The notes beneath the pieces were generated by a model, which had not been told where the DNA came from, searched no databases, and saw only the letters and a list, made by a program, of their open reading frames with translations. 64,000 nucleotides of DNA from a virus (Duplodnaviria; Heunggongvirae; Uroviricota; Caudoviricetes): the IMG/VR virus record IMGVR_UViG_3300029415_000001; one strand, given 5' to 3'. The translations under genes and the position numbers were made by a program. Below are positions 29,514 to 36,953 of this stretch, one piece after another (the stretch's first letter is position 1; each line of letters starts with the position of its first letter).

Positions 29514-30707
29514 GTGACCTGGGACGATCACAAAAAGAATTTTGCTCGCCTGGCGCGAGATGGTGGTTACACCATCGCACAGTATGCCGCCGAGTTTAAT
29601 CTTAACCCTAATACCGCACGTCGTTATCTCCGTGCCTTCAAAGAAGACACCAGGACTGCGGACAGCCGCAAGCCAAATAAGCCAGTCAGGAAGCCACTAA
29701 AAAGCATGATCATTGATCACTCTAATGATCAACATGCAGGTGATCATATTGCGGCTGAAATAGCGGAAAAACAGAGAGTTAATGCCGTTGTCAGTGCCGC
29801 AGTCGAGAATGCGAAGCGCCAAAATAAGCGCATAAATGATTGTTCAGATGATCATGACGTGATCACCCGCGCCCACCGGACCTTACGTGATCGCCTGGAA
29901 CGCGACACCCTGGATGATGATGGTGAACGCTTTGAATTCGAAGCTGGCGATTACCTGATAGATAACGTTGAAGCGCGGAAGGCCGCGCGCGCTATGTTGC
30001 GTCGGTCCGGGGCCGATGTTCTGGAAACCACTCTTCTTGAAAAGTCTCTTTCTCATCTCCTTATGCTGGAGAACGCCAGGGATACGTGTATTCGCCTGGT
30101 GCAGGAAATGCGCGATCAGCAAAAAGACGATGATGAAGGTACTCCGCCTGAATACCGTATCGCGAGCATGCTAAACAGCTGTTCCGCGCAGATAAGCAGC
30201 CTGATCAACACCATTTACAGCATCCGGAATAACTATCGAAAAGAAAGCCGGGAGGCGGAAAAGCACGCTTTGTCTATGGGGCAAGCTGGCATTGTTAAGC
30301 TGGCATACGAACGAAAGCGTGAAAATAACTGGTCAGTGCTGGAAGCGGCTGAATTCATCGAGGCGCATGGAGGGAAAGTGCCGCCCCTGATGCTGGAGCA
30401 AATCAAAGCCGATCTGCGTGCTCCTAAGACCAATACCGATGATGAGGAAAACCAAACAGCATCTGGCGCTCCATCACTTGAAGATCTGGATAAAATCGCG
30501 CGAGAACGGGCCGCCAGCCGCCGCGCTGATGCCGCATTGTGGATTGAGCATCGTAGAGAAGAAATTGCCGATATCGTCGATACAGGTGGTTATGGTGATG
30601 TCGATGCGGAAGGCATATCAAACGAAGCATGGCTTGAACAGGATCTGGACGAAGACGAGGAGGAAGACGAAGAAGTTACCCGCAAACTGTACGGGGATGA
30701 TGATTAA
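29514..30707 (+). CDS. pacA: terminase small/recognition subunit PacA
   Basis: 397-aa ORF (same length as P1 PacA as recalled) containing the hexamer-repeat pac site near its 5' end; GTG start with AAAGGAAG RBS. Confidence 0.85.
29707..29866 (+). promoter_or_regulatory. pac packaging site: clustered TGATCA/G hexamers (Dam GATC sites) in two groups
   Basis: TGATCA at 29707, 29714, 29726, 29741 and at 29849, 29860 inside pacA. Confidence 0.8.
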
Positions 30708-32530: not shown

Positions 32531-32752
32531 ATGGCTACTATCCCTACCCCAACTCATCCTGAATTTATCTGGCGCTTTTACTCCTGCCAAAAACGTCACT
32601 ATCACTTCGTTATTGCACCGACAGAAGATGAGGCCCGCTCTCAGCTTCCTGACGCCCCATGTATTTTCTCTGCCCGTTTTTCCACTGATTCACGCAATTC
32701 TCTCAGTTACTGGTGCCTCCCTGTTAACGCTTCTGCTCAGGAGGGACTATGA
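32531..32752 (+). CDS. Icd-like small protein (73 aa; cell-division-inhibitor family)
   Basis: ATG 32531 with TAAGGAGG RBS; pattern FIWRF...EDEARSQLPDAP...ARF typical of Icd-like proteins; track shows it inside a longer ORF 32303-32752. Confidence 0.55.
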   Translation: MATIPTPTHPEFIWRFYSCQKRHYHFVIAPTEDEARSQLPDAPCIFSARFSTDSRNSLSYWCLPVNASAQEGL

Positions 32753-33867
32753 GAACGTCATTAGTCACCCGTGAAGAGATGATCGAGGCAATTGAACAGC
32801 ACACTGCCTGTATCAGTACCAGGGATATACCAGGCGTTATTGCCAACTACTTCATGATCACCAAACAACTTTACCGGAGAAAGGACAAGAACGCGGTTCA
32901 CCGTATCCTGTTGTCTGATATCCGCGAATACCTGCTCGAACAGGGTCATCTGAATTACGTAACCGCCGCAGCCGAAGCACGCAAGGAGGCACACAGAATG
33001 AAAGCAACTAACGTTAAATCAGAAAAAATTCATGCACCTTCAGTTCAAGAATCGGAGCTGGTGGTTGTTCAGAATCAGTCTGATGAAATTCCCGTTCTGG
33101 AATGGCAGGGAGTGCGTGTAGTGACAACCGAGACTCTTGCTAGAGGGTATGGGACAGAAACAATCCGTATTCGCCAAAATCATCATGAGAACAAAGTACG
33201 CTTTGTTGAAGGGAAGCACTTTTTCAAAGTTGAAGGAGAATCATTGCGCGAGTTGAAGCACAGAGTAGCTTTAAACTACTCTGTAAAAATTGCTCGCAAT
33301 GTTCGCTCACTCACCCTCTGGACAGAACGCGGCGCAGCCCGCCACGCTAAAATGCTCGAAACCGATCAGGCATGGGCATTCTTTGAAAAACTGGAAGACA
33401 GCTACTTCCGACAAAAAGAACAGCAACCGATCGCAATCCCCCAGACGCTTCCTGAAGCCCTACGCCTGGCTGCCGAACTGGCTGAACAAAAGCAACTTCT
33501 GGAACAGAAAGCCCACCAGCTAAATCAGCAGCTGGTGGCCGCCGCTCCTAAAGTCGATTTTGCCGACCGGGTATCAGTAGCTAAAGGGATCCTGATTGGG
33601 AATTTTGCAAAGGTTGTTGGACTTAAACAAAACGCGCTGTTTGTCTGGTTACGGGAGAACGGCATCCTGATAGCGTCCGGTGGACGTAAAAATGTGCCGT
33701 TCCAGCAGTACATCAACGCGGGGTATTTCACGGTGAAAGAAGTGGTGCTGGATGATGAAGATGGCTACCAGATACGGTTGACGCCTCAATTAACGGGTAA
33801 AGGCCAGCAGTGGTTGACGCGTAAACTGCTCGATGCTGGCTTGTTAAAACCGGTGGCGGCTGAATAA
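32749..33867 (+). CDS. antirepressor-like protein (Bro-N/ORF6N-like plus KilA-C/Ant C-terminal domain), with strong internal RBS and ATG at 32998 (possible shorter in-frame product)
   Basis: 372 aa; C-terminal ...FADRVSVAKGILIGNFAKVVGLKQNALFVWLRENGILI... KilAC motif; internal AAGGAGG-9-ATG. Confidence 0.65.
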   Translation: MRTSLVTREEMIEAIEQHTACISTRDIPGVIANYFMITKQLYRRKDKNAVHRILLSDIREYLLEQGHLNYVTAAAEARKEAHRMKATNVKSEKIHAPSVQESELVVVQNQSDEIPVLEWQGVRVVTTETLARGYGTETIRIRQNHHENKVRFVEGKHFFKVEGESLRELKHRVALNYSVKIARNVRSLTLWTERGAARHAKMLETDQAWAFFEKLEDSYFRQKEQQPIAIPQTLPEALRLAAELAEQKQLLEQKAHQLNQQLVAAAPKVDFADRVSVAKGILIGNFAKVVGLKQNALFVWLRENGILIASGGRKNVPFQQYINAGYFTVKEVVLDDEDGYQIRLTPQLTGKGQQWLTRKLLDAGLLKPVAAE

Positions 33868-33899: not shown

Positions 33900-34751
33900 T
33901 TATTGCGCGCTTTCGGGGTTGTCGTTTACTGGCTGCCCCTTCTTGGTTTTACGGCTGCGCGTAACTGATGCGGCTGACTTAACCTTTTTCTCTTCGCGAG
34001 TGATGGCAATTTGTTTTTTTACATTTTCAATATCTGCCAGGCGATATATTTTTGCTTGCGGCCAGCGGTCGCAGATGATCGGTTCTATGGAGTCATAAAG
34101 GCTAAATTTTGCTTTTTCGAATTCACCGTTGATGATAATTCCATCACGGAGAGTTTCATCGCAGATAAACACGCCACACAGTGGCACATGGTAACTAACT
34201 GATTTACCATCATTGTAGTTAGGGCTACTGGAAATGTAGTGGACGCGCAGCATTGTTTCGCTAAAGCCGTGTACGCGCATACGGAATTTTTCATCCTCCG
34301 GGTACTGCCTCATTAGCTCTTTTGTTGCTTCCAGGTTCTCTATGTATTTCGCACTGTGCTCATTGAGCCCCGCGCTTTTTTGGATGCGAATGTCCTTATC
34401 AATCAGATGAATAATGCGGCCAGCGGTCATGTTGACGCTGTTCACAGCTTCTGTCTGATAAGTTGTAACCTTACGTACACCGCGAAGGATGTTAGGCACT
34501 GGATATAAAATAGTCTTTGGGATATTGAGGTCTGGGTACTGTTCCAGTTCCCGCGCCATTAAAGTCCATTTATCAATTTCAGCCTGAATGCTGTCAGTTT
34601 CTTTGAACGGTAGAACGACAACCGGGCGTACAGGACGACCGTCGCTGGCTGTATCAACGTGTTGGGCGCGTGCAACAGCTTTTTTTAGAAAGAGATCCCT
34701 GAAGCTGACGAACTCCTGGTACAGTTGTTCGCCGTAGACATAATTTATCAT
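33900..34751 (-). CDS. c1: C1 repressor of lysis
   Basis: 283 aa matching P1 C1 as recalled (MINYVYGEQLYQEFVSFRDLFLKKAVARAQHV...); operators nearby. Confidence 0.95.
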   Translation of the reverse strand: MINYVYGEQLYQEFVSFRDLFLKKAVARAQHVDTASDGRPVRPVVVLPFKETDSIQAEIDKWTLMARELEQYPDLNIPKTILYPVPNILRGVRKVTTYQTEAVNSVNMTAGRIIHLIDKDIRIQKSAGLNEHSAKYIENLEATKELMRQYPEDEKFRMRVHGFSETMLRVHYISSSPNYNDGKSVSYHVPLCGVFICDETLRDGIIINGEFEKAKFSLYDSIEPIICDRWPQAKIYRLADIENVKKQIAITREEKKVKSAASVTRSRKTKKGQPVNDNPESAQ

Positions 34752-34844
34752 TGATCCTCCTCCAGAATTGACATGGTCAATAACGCCCGGCTGAGAAAAC
34801 CGGTCATTACTGACCTATATTATAGAGGGATCAAACAAAAATAA

Positions 34845-34861
34845 TAGATTTATTAGTGCAT
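34845..34861 (-). promoter_or_regulatory. C1 operator-like site between coi and c1
   Basis: Reverse-orientation match (ATGCACTAATAAATCTA). Confidence 0.5.
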
Positions 34862-35071
34862 TTATTGTGAGTCTAACTGGTTAGTTGCCATGAGATATTC
34901 GATTGTGTCAGTGAGGTCATCCAAGTCGTCTTGGGTGATGCGGTACTCCTGATTGGATATCTTTGAGTAGTGTTCAGCAATGGCGCGGGCAGCGTCGGTT
35001 TCGGCAGGGTCTACAGATAAAGCGTTAGAGCAATGTCTAACGTCGTCGATGGTTGGTTGAATGAAAGCCAT
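34862..35071 (-). CDS. coi: C1 inactivator Coi
   Basis: 69-aa ORF immediately upstream of c1 in the same orientation, as in P1. Confidence 0.75.
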   Translation of the reverse strand: MAFIQPTIDDVRHCSNALSVDPAETDAARAIAEHYSKISNQEYRITQDDLDDLTDTIEYLMATNQLDSQ

Positions 35072-35309
35072 AATTATGCCTCACTGTATTGACAACACAG
35101 AGCCTGAAGCTCTGACCTACTGTTTCACCCATGATCCATGCTGGGGTAATCTAACAACATTGCGCTGTGTGTAAGATGAGCAATGCATAGCTGTAATGCC
35201 GTTGTATAAGGTTTCCCTGTTTGCTCATTTCCTTCTGAGCCGCTCTACAACGCTGAAGACACATTAAATAGTGAATCCAAAGTCGTATTACGTAACGGCG
35301 GCAAAACTA

Positions 35310-35326
35310 TAATTTATTAGAGCAAT
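35310..35326 (-). promoter_or_regulatory. C1 operator-like site upstream of coi-c1 (Op99-type)
   Basis: Reverse-orientation match ATTGCTCTAATAAATTA. Confidence 0.6.
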
Positions 35327-35392
35327 TGTCAAACAACTATGAAAAACAATCCAGTTTTTAGCTGGTGGAGTGGGATTTTTCTCTCCAAATTT

Positions 35393-35409
35393 ATTGCTCT
35401 AATAATTCT
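35393..35409 (+). promoter_or_regulatory. C1 operator-like site (ATTGCTCTAATAATTCT) near loxP
   Basis: Consensus match. Confidence 0.6.
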
Positions 35410-35452
35410 TGATTTTTGTGCGCAGCTGGACGTAAACTCCTCTTCGGACCTG

Positions 35453-35486
35453 ATAACTTCGTATAGCATACATTATACGAAGTTAT
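35453..35486 (+). other. loxP recombination site
   Basis: Exact 34-bp ATAACTTCGTATA-GCATACAT-TATACGAAGTTAT. Confidence 0.99.
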
Positions 35487-35675
35487 CTTAAGGGTTATTG
35501 AACATGATCAATTTACCTGTAAATCCATACAGTTCAATACCTTATCAGGTCAAATAGTGATCACTTGATCATTTGATCAAGGTAGCGCTACGTAAAATCT
35601 GCGAAATGTTGGCGGTGTTAGTCCTACAGATTTCGCGTAGCGCACTTAGCACCACCAATCAATCAGAGGTGAAAA

Positions 35676-35897
35676 ATGGGATATTCAGCTGCTAAAGTGT
35701 CCACTCATCTTGAGCTTGAGAAAAACCGTGGTTACTGGCGGGCAAAAGGGTTTGATCGTGATAGTTGTCAACTGTCATTATCGCGCGGTGAAGAGAAAAT
35801 AGAACGCACGCGCGGTCGCTGGCGTTTCTATGACGAGAACCATAAACAGGTAAAGGCAGAGCCGATCCTGTACACTTTACTTAAAACCATTATCTGA
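35676..35897 (+). CDS. hypothetical 73-aa protein between loxP and cre
   Basis: ORF track; this reading frame is present upstream of cre in P1-derived sequences as recalled. Confidence 0.45.
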   Translation: MGYSAAKVSTHLELEKNRGYWRAKGFDRDSCQLSLSRGEEKIERTRGRWRFYDENHKQVKAEPILYTLLKTII

Positions 35898-35904
35898 GTG
35901 TTAA

Positions 35905-36936
35905 ATGTCCAATTTACTGACCGTACACCAAAATTTGCCTGCATTACCGGTCGATGCAACGAGTGATGAGGTTCGCAAGAACCTGATGGACATGTTCAGG
36001 GATCGCCAGGCGTTTTCTGAGCATACCTGGAAAATGCTTCTGTCCGTTTGCCGGTCGTGGGCGGCATGGTGCAAGTTGAATAACCGGAAGTGGTTTCCCG
36101 CAGAACCTGAAGATGTTCGCGATTATCTTCTATATCTTCAGGCGCGCGGTCTGGCAGTGAAAACTATCCAGCAACATTTGGGCCAGCTAAATATGCTTCA
36201 TCGTCGGTCCGGTCTGCCACGACCAAGTGACAGCAATGCTGTTTCACTGGTCATGCGACGGATCCGAAAAGAAAACGTTGATGCCGGTGAACGTGCAAAA
36301 CAGGCACTAGCGTTCGAACGCACTGATTTCGACCAGGTTCGTTCACTCATGGAAAATAGCGATCGCTGCCAGGATATACGTAATCTGGCATTTCTGGGGA
36401 TTGCTTATAACACCCTGTTACGTATAGCCGAAATTGCCAGGATCAGGGTTAAAGATATCTCACGTACTGACGGTGGGAGAATGTTAATCCATATTGGCAG
36501 AACGAAAACGCTGGTTAGCACCGCAGGTGTAGAGAAGGCACTTAGCCTGGGGGTAACTAAACTGGTCGAGCGATGGATTTCTGTCTCTGGTGTGGCTGAT
36601 GATCCGAATAACTACTTGTTTTGCCGGGTCAGAAAAAATGGTGTTGCCTCGCCATCACCCACCAGCCAGCTATCAACTCGCGCCCTGGAAGGGATTTTTG
36701 AAGCAACTCATCAATTGATTTACGGCGCTAAGGATGACTCTGGTCAGAGATACCTGGCCTGGTCTGGACACAGTGCCCGTGTCGGAGCCGCGCGAGATAT
36801 GGCCCGCGCTGGAGTTTCAATACCGGAGATCATGCAAGCTGGTGGCTGGACCAATGTAAATATTGTCATGAACTATATCCGTAACCTGGATAGTGAAACA
36901 GGGGCAATGGTGCGCCTGCTGGAAGATGGCGATTAG
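35905..36936 (+). CDS. cre: Cre tyrosine recombinase (variant)
   Basis: 343 aa; near-identical to P1 Cre as recalled, with a few substitutions (VASPSPTSQLS, THQLIYG). Confidence 0.98.
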   Translation: MSNLLTVHQNLPALPVDATSDEVRKNLMDMFRDRQAFSEHTWKMLLSVCRSWAAWCKLNNRKWFPAEPEDVRDYLLYLQARGLAVKTIQQHLGQLNMLHRRSGLPRPSDSNAVSLVMRRIRKENVDAGERAKQALAFERTDFDQVRSLMENSDRCQDIRNLAFLGIAYNTLLRIAEIARIRVKDISRTDGGRMLIHIGRTKTLVSTAGVEKALSLGVTKLVERWISVSGVADDPNNYLFCRVRKNGVASPSPTSQLSTRALEGIFEATHQLIYGAKDDSGQRYLAWSGHSARVGAARDMARAGVSIPEIMQAGGWTNVNIVMNYIRNLDSETGAMVRLLEDGD

Positions 36937-36953
36937 CCATTAACGCGTAAATG

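What the first reader, a model, noticed from the sequence alone, without database searches (positions are those of the whole stretch)
35453..35640. loxP followed by a GATC cluster and a long inverted repeat upstream of cre
Within about 110 bp downstream of loxP there are four GATC sites (GATCAATTTACC, GTGATCACTTGATCATTTGATCAAGG), then a roughly 20-bp imperfect inverted repeat (GCGCTACGTAAAATCTGCGAAA ... CAGATTTCGCGTAGCGC). This is consistent with Dam-methylation-sensitive cre promoters.
Basis: partly seen in the sequence, partly recalled or inferred. Interest (0 to 1): 0.2.

Follow-up and report, generated by a model that had tools for sequence, protein, structure and literature searches.

The report
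Phage P1 cre control region
This is the already-described control region between loxP and the cre recombinase gene of a P1-type phage-plasmid, with Dam-methylation sites on a cre promoter, but its long inverted repeat is an unannotated element that recurs, nearly unchanged, in front of many Cre-like recombinase genes.

Summary
An exact loxP lies at 35453-35486. GATC sites lie at 35506, 35559, 35567 and 35575. A 17-nt inverted repeat (15/17 complementary, 25-nt spacer) lies at 35585-35601 / 35627-35643.

The window is a P1/P7-type phage-plasmid, 97-100% identical to known records. In GenBank P1 the same positions are annotated as "Dam methylation sites within the regulatory region of cre". The last GATC lies inside the -35 hexamer (TTGATC) of promoter P3cre/pR1.

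Additions:
- The other three are 8-bp-phased TGATCA units whose number varies between relatives.
- The inverted repeat carries the annotated pR1 -10 in its left arm. It is unannotated, yet its arms are almost invariant and its spacer is always 25 nt in P1-like lineages.
- The same repeat recurs 20-35 nt upstream of distant Cre-type recombinase genes on Pantoea and other plasmids, again downstream of a lox-like site and GATC clusters.

The repeat's function is unknown. Two inverted copies of a protein-recognition motif is my preferred reading, and a leader-RNA hairpin is the main rival.

The parts
35453..35486 (.). loxP, the Cre recombination site (13-bp inverted arms, 8-bp spacer)
   Evidence: Exact canonical sequence. 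Perfect 14-nt arms with 8-nt spacer (I6). Annotated as loxP in X03453 and AF234172.
35506..35509 (.). GATC site 1, just downstream of the -10 of the leftward promoter P2coi
   Evidence: Equals P1 coordinate 37-40, 'Dam methylation site 1'. One or two GATCs are kept at this place in the JK004, Newport and Klebsiella lineages.
35510..35537 (-). P2coi, a leftward sigma-70 promoter (TTGAAC-16-TAAATT) reading across loxP towards coi/c1
   Evidence: Transferred by homology from the AF234172 annotation at 41-68. Not tested here.
35515..35534 (.). LexA box (ACCTGTAAATCCATACAGTT; CTGT-N8-ACAG)
   Evidence: Annotated LexA binding site in P1 and P7. One of only two CTGT-N8-ACAG matches in the window. Only 3/20 variable columns among 73 P1-type haplotypes. 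The CTG-N10-CAG core is kept in JK004, Newport and most of the other P1-like lineages sampled; the Klebsiella-type loci L130-L132 have CTGG in the left half. PMC4713147 states that LexA overlaps the coi promoter.
35558..35579 (.). Three 8-bp-phased TGATCA units (GATC at 35559, 35567, 35575) forming the Dam-site cluster
   Evidence: Equal to P7 Dam sites 2-4. In P1 itself the first unit is mutated to GTGACC. Six loci have only two units through an 8-bp deletion.
35573..35578 (+). -35 hexamer TTGATC of cre promoter pR1 (P3cre), containing a GATC
   Evidence: AF234172 feature 104-109 and X03453 feature 155-160, mapped with window = P1 + 35469.
35593..35598 (+). -10 hexamer TAAAAT of pR1 (P3cre), inside the left arm of the inverted repeat
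   Evidence: AF234172 feature 124-129. The spacer to the -35 is only 14 bp. The simple promoter scan does not call this site. The hexamer is not conserved in JK004 (TGAATT) or the Klebsiella lineages (TGAATA).
35585..35601 (.). Left arm of the conserved inverted repeat (GCGCTACGTAAAATCTG)
   Evidence: I5. 1/17 variable columns among 73 P1-type haplotypes. Motif GCGCTACGYRAAWWCTG conserved in 23 diverse copies.
35602..35626 (.). 25-nt spacer of the inverted repeat: variable in sequence, constant in length
   Evidence: 12/25 variable columns within the P1 type. Always 25 nt in all 116 P1-family, inovirus and related loci and in 49 of 61 metagenome copies. Its orientation is reversed relative to the JK004, Newport and Klebsiella lineages.
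35627..35643 (.). Right arm of the inverted repeat (CAGATTTCGCGTAGCGC)
   Evidence: I5. 2/17 variable columns. The most conserved part across Cre-type loci; a right-arm-like TTTYRCGTAGC is kept even in D6-type and Citrobacter loci.
35644..35675 (+). Conserved leader with CCAATCAATCAGAGGTG ribosome-binding region of cra
   Evidence: 3/32 variable columns. The same motif precedes the first gene after the repeat in JK004 and Newport.
35676..35897 (+). cra (73 aa, Cre-associated, function unknown); contains promoters pR2 (TTGATC 35752-35757 / CATTAT 35776-35781) and pR3 (35869-35893)
   Evidence: ORF. Annotation. phrog_804 of unknown function and no Pfam match. The family is restricted to P1-like elements.
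35905..36936 (+). cre (343 aa tyrosine recombinase)
   Evidence: ORF. Phage_integrase Pfam match, E = 6e-33. 99% identical to P1 Cre.

Best explanation
The segment is the divergent control region of a P1/P7-type phage-plasmid, between loxP and the cra-cre operon.

Shown by homology to curated records:
- Just right of loxP a LexA box overlaps a leftward promoter (P2coi) that reads across loxP towards coi/c1. One GATC lies at that promoter's start region.
- About 50 bp further on, three TGATCA units spaced 8 bp apart cover and precede the -35 hexamer (TTGATC) of the rightward cre promoter pR1/P3cre.

Established for P1 (Sternberg et al. 1986); quantitative details are from my own knowledge:
- Full Dam methylation of these sites lowers pR1 activity.
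- Transcription of cra-cre should therefore rise when the DNA is unmethylated or hemimethylated, that is, just after replication. A second cre promoter, pR2, also has TTGATC as its -35.

Inferred here:
- The 59-bp inverted repeat is a separate, older module. It consists of two inverted copies of the motif GCGCTACGYRAAWWCTG held exactly 25 bp apart (42 bp centre to centre, about four helical turns).
- It is placed at or just after the transcription start and 20-38 nt before the first start codon.
- It accompanies Cre-type recombinase genes far beyond P1.
- I consider it most likely a DNA site bound on one face by an unidentified conserved factor, probably host-encoded, that throttles transcription into the recombinase operon. 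In P1 it overlaps the annotated -10 and +1 of pR1.

The overall confidence given (0.8) refers to the identity of the region and the Dam and LexA assignments. My probability for the DNA-operator reading of the repeat alone is about 0.4.
For: Identity and annotation.

Dam regulation:
- Annotation and the paper title.
- GATC enrichment in 21 Cre-type control regions, 59 observed against 19.7 expected.
- GATC clusters next to lox-like sites in Pantoea and metagenome loci.

LexA and P2coi.

The repeat is under selection:
- Within 73 P1-type haplotypes, variable columns are 1/17 and 2/17 in the arms, against 12/25 in the spacer and 28% in cra.
- The spacer is 25 nt in every P1-like lineage although its sequence differs.
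- The repeat sits 20-35 nt upstream of about 19 Cre-type genes, each with its own lox-like site 60-135 bp upstream.
- It is present in two Pantoea plasmids that were retrieved by protein, not by the repeat.

A sequence motif rather than base pairing:
- On 23 diverse copies, 83.6% of cells pair, against 82.3% after shuffling.
- Only one pair shows a real two-sided change.
- There is no strand asymmetry: 83.6% on the plus strand and 81.2% on the minus strand.
- Positions 9, 10, 13 and 14 of each arm vary independently.

The spacer can be flipped without loss of the element. The arms do not change with the lox-like site of the neighbouring recombinase.
Against: - No experiment was possible: methylation dependence, LexA binding and transcription starts all rest on annotation and literature.
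- The annotated pR1 has a 14-bp spacer between hexamers and is not called by the consensus scan. Its -10 is not conserved in the JK004 and Klebsiella lineages, so the true start point is uncertain.
- No binding protein for the repeat is identified.
- Many non-P1 copies have a -10-like hexamer 4-7 nt upstream of the left arm. The repeat would then be transcribed as the 5' end of the mRNA, which fits an RNA role equally well.
- Many spacers contain a small inner hairpin (GGGN...NCCC) whose sequence differs between lineages. A pure DNA operator does not need that.
- The metagenome sample was anchored on a fixed right arm, which biases any covariation test.
- A few copies have spacers of 24, 26 or 28 nt.
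Confidence: 0.8

Rival explanations
1. The inverted repeat works as RNA. Transcribed from a promoter upstream of the left arm, it forms a 17-21-bp hairpin at the 5' end of the recombinase mRNA. The hairpin would set mRNA stability, processing (for example by RNase III) or translation. In P1, transcripts from pR1 (start inside the spacer) would lack the left arm and so differ from transcripts started further upstream.
For: - Predicted hairpin of -25.4 kcal/mol, z = -3.1 on the plus strand. The JK004 homologue gives z = -6.6.
- Fixed position in the leader, 20-38 nt before the start codon.
- A -10-like hexamer lies just upstream of the left arm in most non-P1 copies.
- Three arm substitutions seen within the P1 type either improve pairing or give G.U on the plus strand.
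- Lineage-specific inner hairpins occur in the spacer.
Against: - Pairing frequency is no higher than expected from column composition, and only one pair covaries.
- There is no plus/minus strand difference, so no G.U signature.
- Arm sequences are nearly invariant across recombinases that are only about 40% identical, which simple pairing does not require.
- Spacer length is fixed and the spacer can be inverted.
- Predicted ribosome-binding-site accessibility does not change consistently with or without the left arm.
- No Rfam family matches.
- With the annotated pR1 start, the P1 transcript lacks the left arm.
Confidence: 0.3
2. The repeat acts as a folded DNA hairpin or cruciform in single-stranded or supercoiled DNA. 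It could serve, for example, as a priming or single-strand promoter signal used when a mobile element enters or replicates in a cell.
For: - The same repeat occurs in the intergenic region of an inovirus-like contig (L091/L121).
- It also occurs in a long non-coding stretch 1.7 kb upstream of psiA on large E. coli plasmids. Both are settings in which single-stranded DNA is functional.
- The spacer has been inverted at least three times, as expected if the arms pair within one strand during replication.
Against: - P1 DNA enters as duplex.
- A 25-nt loop disfavours cruciform extrusion (general knowledge).
- The stem is too short to contain both a -35 and a -10, as known single-strand promoters do.
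- There is no covariation.
- In most copies the position is tied to a recombinase start codon.
Confidence: 0.1
3. The GATC cluster acts mainly through SeqA or other binding to hemimethylated DNA (sequestration after replication), not through a direct effect of methyl groups on RNA polymerase at the -35 hexamer.
For: - Several closely spaced GATCs, in P1-like elements and as GGATC-N6-8-GGATCC pairs in Pantoea-type loci, are a conserved feature although their exact positions differ.
- SeqA prefers paired hemimethylated sites (general knowledge).
Against: - In P1-like elements one GATC is always inside the annotated -35 hexamer.
- The 8-bp phasing puts neighbouring sites on different faces of the helix.
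- Nothing here tests binding.
Confidence: 0.15
4. The GATC cluster and the inverted repeat are chance features, or neutral remnants without function.
For: Window-wide, a GATC triple within 20 bp (34%) and one such inverted repeat (4/20 shuffles) are not rare by chance alone.
Against: - Strong conservation of the arms against a variable spacer.
- Recurrence with the same spacing in many lineages and contexts.
- GATC enrichment at P = 7e-13 over 21 loci.
- Published methylation effect for P1.
Confidence: 0.03

Closest known systems
Bacteriophage P1 / P7 loxP-cra-cre regulatory region (GenBank X03453, AF234172, AF503408; Sternberg et al. 1986; Lobocka et al. 2004)
   Same: Same locus with the same order of loxP, Dam sites, LexA box, P2coi, pR1/pR2/pR3, cra and cre. 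Nucleotide identity is 97-98%.
   Different: - This allele has four GATCs, like P7, phiW39 and SJ46. P1 itself has three because the first TGATCA is GTGACC.
- There are a few substitutions in the repeat's spacer.
- None of the three records annotates the inverted repeat.
IS10/Tn10 transposase promoter pIN and other Dam-sensitive promoters (general knowledge)
   Same: A GATC lies inside a core promoter hexamer of a gene for a DNA-rearranging enzyme. Methylation state therefore couples expression to replication.
   Different: In IS10 the GATC is in the -10, and an antisense RNA adds control. Here the GATC is in the -35, within a phased TGATCA array, and no antisense RNA is known.
Cre-type recombinase modules with lox-like sites (Dre/rox of D6, Panto/pox, and others; PMC4957104, PMC10250229)
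   Same: A lox-like 13+8+13 site lies upstream of a recombinase of about 340 aa. In the Pantoea-type members found here the same 59-bp repeat and GATC clusters lie between site and gene.
   Different: - Those studies searched only for palindromes with an 8-bp spacer and do not describe the 25-bp-spaced repeat.
- D6-type loci keep only a right-arm-like sequence.
- P1-like elements have inserted cra (and in some lineages 68-aa and 356-aa genes) between repeat and recombinase.
Recombination sites that overlap the recombinase's own promoter (Tn3 res/tnpR, Tn5401 TnpI; general knowledge)
   Same: A cis element in the promoter or leader of a site-specific recombinase gene, close to the recombination site, presumably keeps expression low.
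   Different: The repeat is distinct from the recombination site. It does not change with the lox-like site of each system, so the recombinase is unlikely to be the binder through its normal DNA-recognition surface.
cer/psi-type accessory sequences bound by ArgR, PepA or ArcA
   Same: Host-factor sites next to a plasmid dimer-resolution site. ArgR and PepA were once proposed to act at P1 loxP.
   Different: The proposed Arg box is on the other (c1) side of loxP. ArgR does not bind it, and PepA and ArgR have no effect on a 601-bp loxP fragment that includes 236 bp on the cre side (PMC2409434).

Membership tests
loxP (Cre target site) | Two 13-bp inverted arms ATAACTTCGTATA around the 8-bp spacer GCATACAT | tested here: met
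   Exact 34-mer at 35453-35486. Aligns to the annotated loxP of X03453.
loxP (Cre target site) | A cognate Cre recombinase encoded nearby | tested here: met
   cre at 35905-36936, 99% identical to P1 Cre, with a Phage_integrase domain.
Dam-methylation-sensitive promoter | GATC within a core promoter hexamer | tested here: met
   TTGATC at 35573-35578 equals the annotated -35 of P3cre/pR1. TTGATC at 35752-35757 equals the -35 of P2cre/pR2. The promoter assignment itself comes from annotation, not from a test here.
Dam-methylation-sensitive promoter | Promoter activity differs between dam+ and dam- hosts | not testable with these tools
   Reported for P1 by Sternberg et al. 1986 (title cited). 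The magnitude is recalled from memory only.
LexA (SOS) box | CTGT-N8-ACAG palindrome overlapping a promoter | tested here: met
   CTGTAAATCCATACAG at 35517-35532. Annotated as a LexA site overlapping P2coi. The CTG-N10-CAG core is conserved in most P1-like lineages sampled; the Klebsiella-type loci L130-L132 have CTGG in the left half.
LexA (SOS) box | LexA binding and SOS induction | not testable with these tools
   Only annotation and a statement in PMC4713147.
Intrinsic (rho-independent) terminator | GC-rich stem, short loop, and a T-run after the stem | tested here: not met
   No terminator-like site on either strand in 35300-35950. The loop is 25 nt and there is no T-run after either arm.
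Any described RNA family (Rfam 15) | Match to a covariance model | tested here: not met
   No match with E <= 1 in 34700-36200.
Structured RNA hairpin maintained by base pairing | Compensatory changes and more pairing than column composition predicts | tested here: inconclusive
   83.6% paired against 82.3% shuffled (33/500). One pair shows a real two-sided change. No strand asymmetry. The sample is partly biased by a fixed right arm.
Invertible DNA switch (phase variation) | Both orientations present among close relatives or within a population | tested here: not met
   All 73 P1-type haplotypes share one spacer orientation. Flips are seen only between lineages. 25 bp is too short for synapsis of the two arms (general knowledge).
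ArgR/PepA accessory site for recombination | Arg box bound by ArgR, and an effect on recombination topology | tested here: not met
   The literature test was negative for the loxP region including this side (PMC2409434).
RfaH ops element | GGCGGTAGnnTG in the leader | tested here: not met
   The right arm shares only GTAGCG (6 of 12 positions), by inspection. The ops consensus is from my own knowledge.

The most novel reading that the evidence does not exclude
The 59-bp inverted repeat (GCGCTACGYRAAWWCTG - 25 nt - its complement) is an undescribed, widely conserved cis-regulatory module of enterobacterial mobile elements. It sits in the leader of Cre-type recombinase genes, and occasionally of other tyrosine-recombinase genes, always downstream of a lox-like site and Dam-site clusters. 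It also occurs in an inovirus intergenic region and in a non-coding stretch upstream of psiA on large plasmids. It would be recognised by a still unknown conserved factor that, together with Dam methylation, limits recombinase expression to particular moments such as entry or the period just after replication.
Probability: 0.4. Interest if true: 0.55.

Novelty: already known. Interest (0 to 1): 0.3.

Why it matters
The loxP-cre control region is among the most used pieces of DNA in biology, and its Dam-sensitive promoter has been known since 1986. As stated, the finding therefore adds nothing new.

What may matter is the inverted repeat. It is not annotated in the reference records, yet it is far better conserved than the surrounding sequence. 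It travels with Cre-type recombinase genes whose proteins are only about 40% identical.

If a factor binds it, that would reveal how plasmids and phage-plasmids keep a potentially dangerous recombinase at very low, well-timed levels. It would also give a simple sequence signature for finding natural Cre-type systems and their control regions.

Tried and rejected
- Intrinsic terminator on either strand: none.
- Known RNA family: none.
- ArgR/PepA accessory site: the proposed Arg box lies left of loxP and was refuted experimentally.
- Alternative pairing in the pR1 leader (UUGGCGGUG with CACCACCAA, third fold). The common variant TTGGCAGTG weakens it while the partner does not change, so there is no support.
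- RNA switch in which the left arm frees or hides the ribosome-binding site: accessibility changes are small and inconsistent over 18 loci.
- Cra as the protein that binds the repeat: the repeat is present in many loci without cra. Cra has no recognisable domain.
- Cre binding the arms as pseudo half-sites: there is some resemblance (CTACGTAAA against CTTCGTATA), but the arms do not change with the lox-like site of each system and the half-site spacing is wrong.
- Programmed inversion of the spacer: only one orientation occurs in all P1-type sequences.
- Other copies of the arm motif in the window, as would be expected for a regulon: none.
- The genome-contig scan with Cre returned only two E. 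coli loci. Full texts of Sternberg 1986 and Lobocka 2004 are not held.
- I compared the arms by eye with recalled consensus sites for CRP, FNR, Fis, IHF, Lrp, OxyR, DnaA, XerC/D and ops. None fits. These comparisons are from memory and are leads only.

Full report
**What is there**

The window around 35300-36950 is the loxP-cra-cre region of a P1/P7-type phage-plasmid.
- A 651-bp query is 97.2-98.3% identical over its whole length to phiW39, SJ46, P1 and P7 records.
- A 471-bp query is 100% identical to an E. coli plasmid, and about 700 plasmid records carry it at 96-100%.
- Upstream on the minus strand lie c1 (33900-34751) and coi (34862-35071). Downstream lie cra (35676-35897), cre (35905-36936), c8 and ref.
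- P1 reference coordinate x equals window 35469 + x, because P1 position 1 is the central A of lox.

**Check of the observation**

All three elements are present where stated.
- loxP lies at 35453-35486 and is the exact canonical 34-mer.
- GATC sites lie at 35506, 35559, 35567 and 35575.
- The inverted repeat has 17-nt arms at 35585-35601 and 35627-35643, 15/17 complementary, with 25 nt between them.

By chance alone neither feature is compelling at the scale of the whole window.
- A GATC triple within 20 bp arises somewhere in 34% of random placements.
- One inverted repeat of this quality arises in 4 of 20 shuffles.
- The phased form TGATCA-NN-TGATCA is unique to this spot (0.27 expected).
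- The repeat is the only one of its class in 64 kb.
- Both features are conserved in relatives, which is the real evidence (see below).

**What is already known**

The curated P1 genome (AF234172) annotates the following in this stretch:
- [quoted passage not shown] at P1 37, 98 and 106.
- A LexA binding site at 46-65.
- A leftward promoter P2coi at 41-68.
- Promoter P3cre (= pR1 of Sternberg) with -35 at 104-109 and -10 at 124-129.
- P2cre (pR2) and P1cre (pR3) inside cra.

P7 has a fourth Dam site at position 90, as this window does. The original record X03453 gives the same promoters. [quoted passage not shown] I could only see it through reference lists. My recollection is that pR1 activity rises a few-fold in dam- cells.

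1. The first GATC (35506) does not sit on a cre promoter. It lies between the -10 (35510-35515, minus strand) and the expected start of the leftward P2coi promoter, next to the LexA box ACCTGTAAATCCATACAGTT (35515-35534).
   - This arrangement of GATC(s) plus a LexA box is kept in Cronobacter phage JK004, in a Salmonella Newport plasmid and in most of the other P1-like lineages sampled.
   - In the Klebsiella-type loci L130-L132 the left half of the box reads CTGG rather than CTGT.
   - A published statement links this LexA site to SOS induction of coi.
2. The other three GATCs are three tandem 8-bp units: TGATCACT, TGATCATT, TGATCAAG. The last gives the -35 hexamer TTGATC of pR1.
   - P1 itself has the first unit mutated.
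   - Six loci have lost one unit by an 8-bp deletion.
3. The -35 hexamer of pR2 (35752-35757) is also TTGATC, so a fifth GATC lies on a cre promoter.
4. The annotated pR1 has only 14 bp between its hexamers and is not called by the consensus scan.

**The inverted repeat in P1-like elements**

The left arm contains the annotated pR1 -10 (TAAAAT, 35593-35598). A pR1 transcript would therefore start inside the spacer and contain only the right arm. None of the three reference records annotates the repeat.

A pattern scan of viral contigs returned 120 loci, all with the same arm-to-arm distance.

Among 73 distinct P1-type haplotypes, the share of variable columns is:

| Segment | Variable columns |
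|---|---|
| Left arm | 1 of 17 |
| Right arm | 2 of 17 |
| Spacer | 12 of 25 |
| cra | 28% |

Two of the three arm substitutions seen make the arms more complementary.

More distant P1-like lineages all keep the arms and exactly 25 nt between them, with very different spacer sequences. These are JK004 (Cre 79% identical), the Newport type and three Klebsiella or Enterobacteriaceae types found through Cra homologues.

In those lineages one or two extra genes (68 aa and 356 aa) lie between the repeat and cra-cre. The pR1 -10 is not conserved there (TGAATT, TGAATA). The repeat, not the hexamer, is therefore the conserved object.

**The inverted repeat beyond P1**

A metagenome scan with the 17-nt right arm gave 120 loci. 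Of these, 61 have a matching left arm, and 49 of the 61 have a 25-nt spacer.
- In about 19 of them the repeat lies 20-35 nt upstream of a protein of about 343 aa with the Cre N-terminal signature (…FVQDKEAFSPNTWRQLLSV…).
- Each of these has its own lox-like 13+8+13 site 60-135 bp further upstream, for example TGACTTCGTATAATTGTTCTTATACGAAGTCA or GGCCTTATATAATAAGCTTTATATAAGGCC.
- Plasmids retrieved by Cre protein similarity, so without bias towards the repeat, confirm this. Two Pantoea plasmids (Cre about 42% identical) have the full repeat with a 25-nt spacer.
- D6-type and Citrobacter loci keep only a right-arm-like TTTYRCGTAGC. A Shewanella locus has nothing.
- GATC clusters, often GGATC-N6-8-GGATCC, lie between the lox-like site and the repeat in many of these loci. 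Over 21 loci the 235-bp interval holds 59 GATCs against 19.7 expected (P = 7e-13; the loci are not fully independent).

The architecture lox-like site, Dam sites, inverted repeat, recombinase gene is therefore ancestral to a large part of the Cre family. P1 is a derived form with cra inserted.

The repeat also occurs in other settings:
- upstream of a 251-aa tyrosine recombinase of another family (L229);
- in the intergenic region of an inovirus-like contig;
- next to a C1-like repressor region in another phage-plasmid type;
- in a long non-coding stretch 1.7 kb upstream of psiA on 13 large E. coli plasmids.

The papers that mined Cre-type systems searched only for palindromes with an 8-bp spacer. 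They would not have seen it.

**How the repeat might work**

On 23 diverse copies the arms pair in 83.6% of cells, but shuffling partners among sequences gives 82.3%.
- Only one position (arm position 13) shows a real A-T to T-A exchange.
- The minus strand pairs almost as well (81.2%), so there is no G.U signature of an RNA on either strand.
- Positions 9, 10, 13 and 14 of each arm vary independently of the partner.

The arms thus look like two copies of a sequence motif, GCGCTACGYRAAWWCTG, rather than a stem kept by compensation.

The spacer is fixed in length and free in sequence, and it has been inverted at least three times:
- the P1 type against its nearest relatives (reverse-complement identity 11-15 of 25, against 2-6 direct);
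- L138;
- L220 against L226 (21 of 25 in reverse complement).

The arms do not change with the lox-like site of each system, which argues against the recombinase binding them in its usual way.

These points favour a duplex DNA site contacted on one face, since the 42-bp centre-to-centre distance is about four helical turns. The binder would be a conserved, probably host-encoded, factor.

Against this:
- Most non-P1 copies have a -10-like hexamer 4-7 nt upstream of the left arm, so the repeat is probably the 5' end of the mRNA.
- Many spacers hold a small lineage-specific inner hairpin.
- The predicted hairpin is stable.

A simple RNA-switch idea, in which the left arm frees or hides the ribosome-binding site, found no support.

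I put the DNA-operator reading at about 0.4, the leader-RNA hairpin at about 0.3, a single-strand or cruciform DNA role at about 0.1, and the rest unknown.

**Verdict**

The finding is real, correctly interpreted and already known. It describes the Dam-regulated cre promoter region of P1, here in its P7-like four-GATC form.

The Dam hypothesis does not explain the inverted repeat. To my knowledge, and on the evidence of the records and papers I could read, that repeat is undescribed. It is a strongly conserved companion of Cre-type recombinase genes, and it is the only part that deserves follow-up.

Noticed in passing
window 29708-29745 and 29850-29892: Two GATC clusters (4 and 3 sites) about 100 bp apart. 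This is the only other dense GATC cluster in the window and resembles the Dam-regulated P1 pac site.
   Followed up: no
window 35303-35326 and 35393-35416: A 24-nt inverted pair containing ATTGCTCTAATAA, left of loxP. It resembles C1 repressor operators of the immC region.
   Followed up: no
window 32749-33867: A 372-aa ORF with ORF6N and ANT (KilAC antirepressor) domains lies just upstream of c1. In the Newport-type plasmid L005 the terminase gene abuts c1 directly, so this ORF looks like an insertion.
   Followed up: partly
window 35752-35757 and 35864-35867: The -35 hexamer of the second cre promoter (pR2) is also TTGATC, so it contains a GATC. Another GATC lies 2 nt upstream of the -35 of pR3. 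Neither is annotated as a Dam site in P1.
   Followed up: partly
window 35557-35580; loci L001, L009, L070, L103, L123: The number of intact TGATCA units varies among P1-like elements. Most have three. Six loci have two through an 8-bp deletion. P1 and one other have two through a point mutation.
   Followed up: yes
window 35602-35626 versus L004, L005, L130; L220 versus L226: The 25-nt spacer of the inverted repeat is reverse-complemented between lineages. This has happened at least three independent times, as expected from recombination or strand switching between the arms.
   Followed up: yes
L005:2500-2533, L136:~2474-2507: Natural loxP variants in P1-like plasmids. The Newport type has ATAACTTCGTATAACACACATTATGCGAAGTTAT. 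Another lineage has the spacer GCGTACAT.
   Followed up: no
JX564242/NC_049809 17548-17581; NZ_CP043029.1 82667-82698: An exact loxP 34-mer lies inside a Lactococcus phage Q33 record (annotated as portal protein). A 32-nt loxP match lies at the very end of a Pseudobutyrivibrio plasmid record. These are probably engineering or assembly artefacts.
   Followed up: no
L269:2501-2559 (E. coli plasmid pDETEC13) and 12 similar plasmids: A copy of the same inverted repeat (25-nt spacer) lies in a long non-coding stretch about 1.7 kb upstream of psiA on large E. coli plasmids. No recombinase gene is adjacent.
   Followed up: partly
L091:5504-5562, L121: The same inverted repeat lies in the intergenic region of a 7-kb inovirus-like contig that carries Zot-like, replication-initiator-like and coat-protein-like ORFs.
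   Followed up: partly
window 35676-35897 (cra): Cra homologues are named 'creatininase' in many automatically annotated records. This is evidently a naming error for a 73-aa protein of unknown function that is restricted to P1-like elements.
   Followed up: partly
L159 and about 15 similar human-gut metagenome loci: This is the most abundant non-recombinase context of the repeat. Left arm GCGCTGCGTGAAAACTG, spacer ACAGGGTTACAGGGGTGTACCAGGT, sometimes 24-28 nt. It has no long ORF downstream and lies near an IS5-type transposase gene. It may be a decaying or different member of the family.
   Followed up: partly
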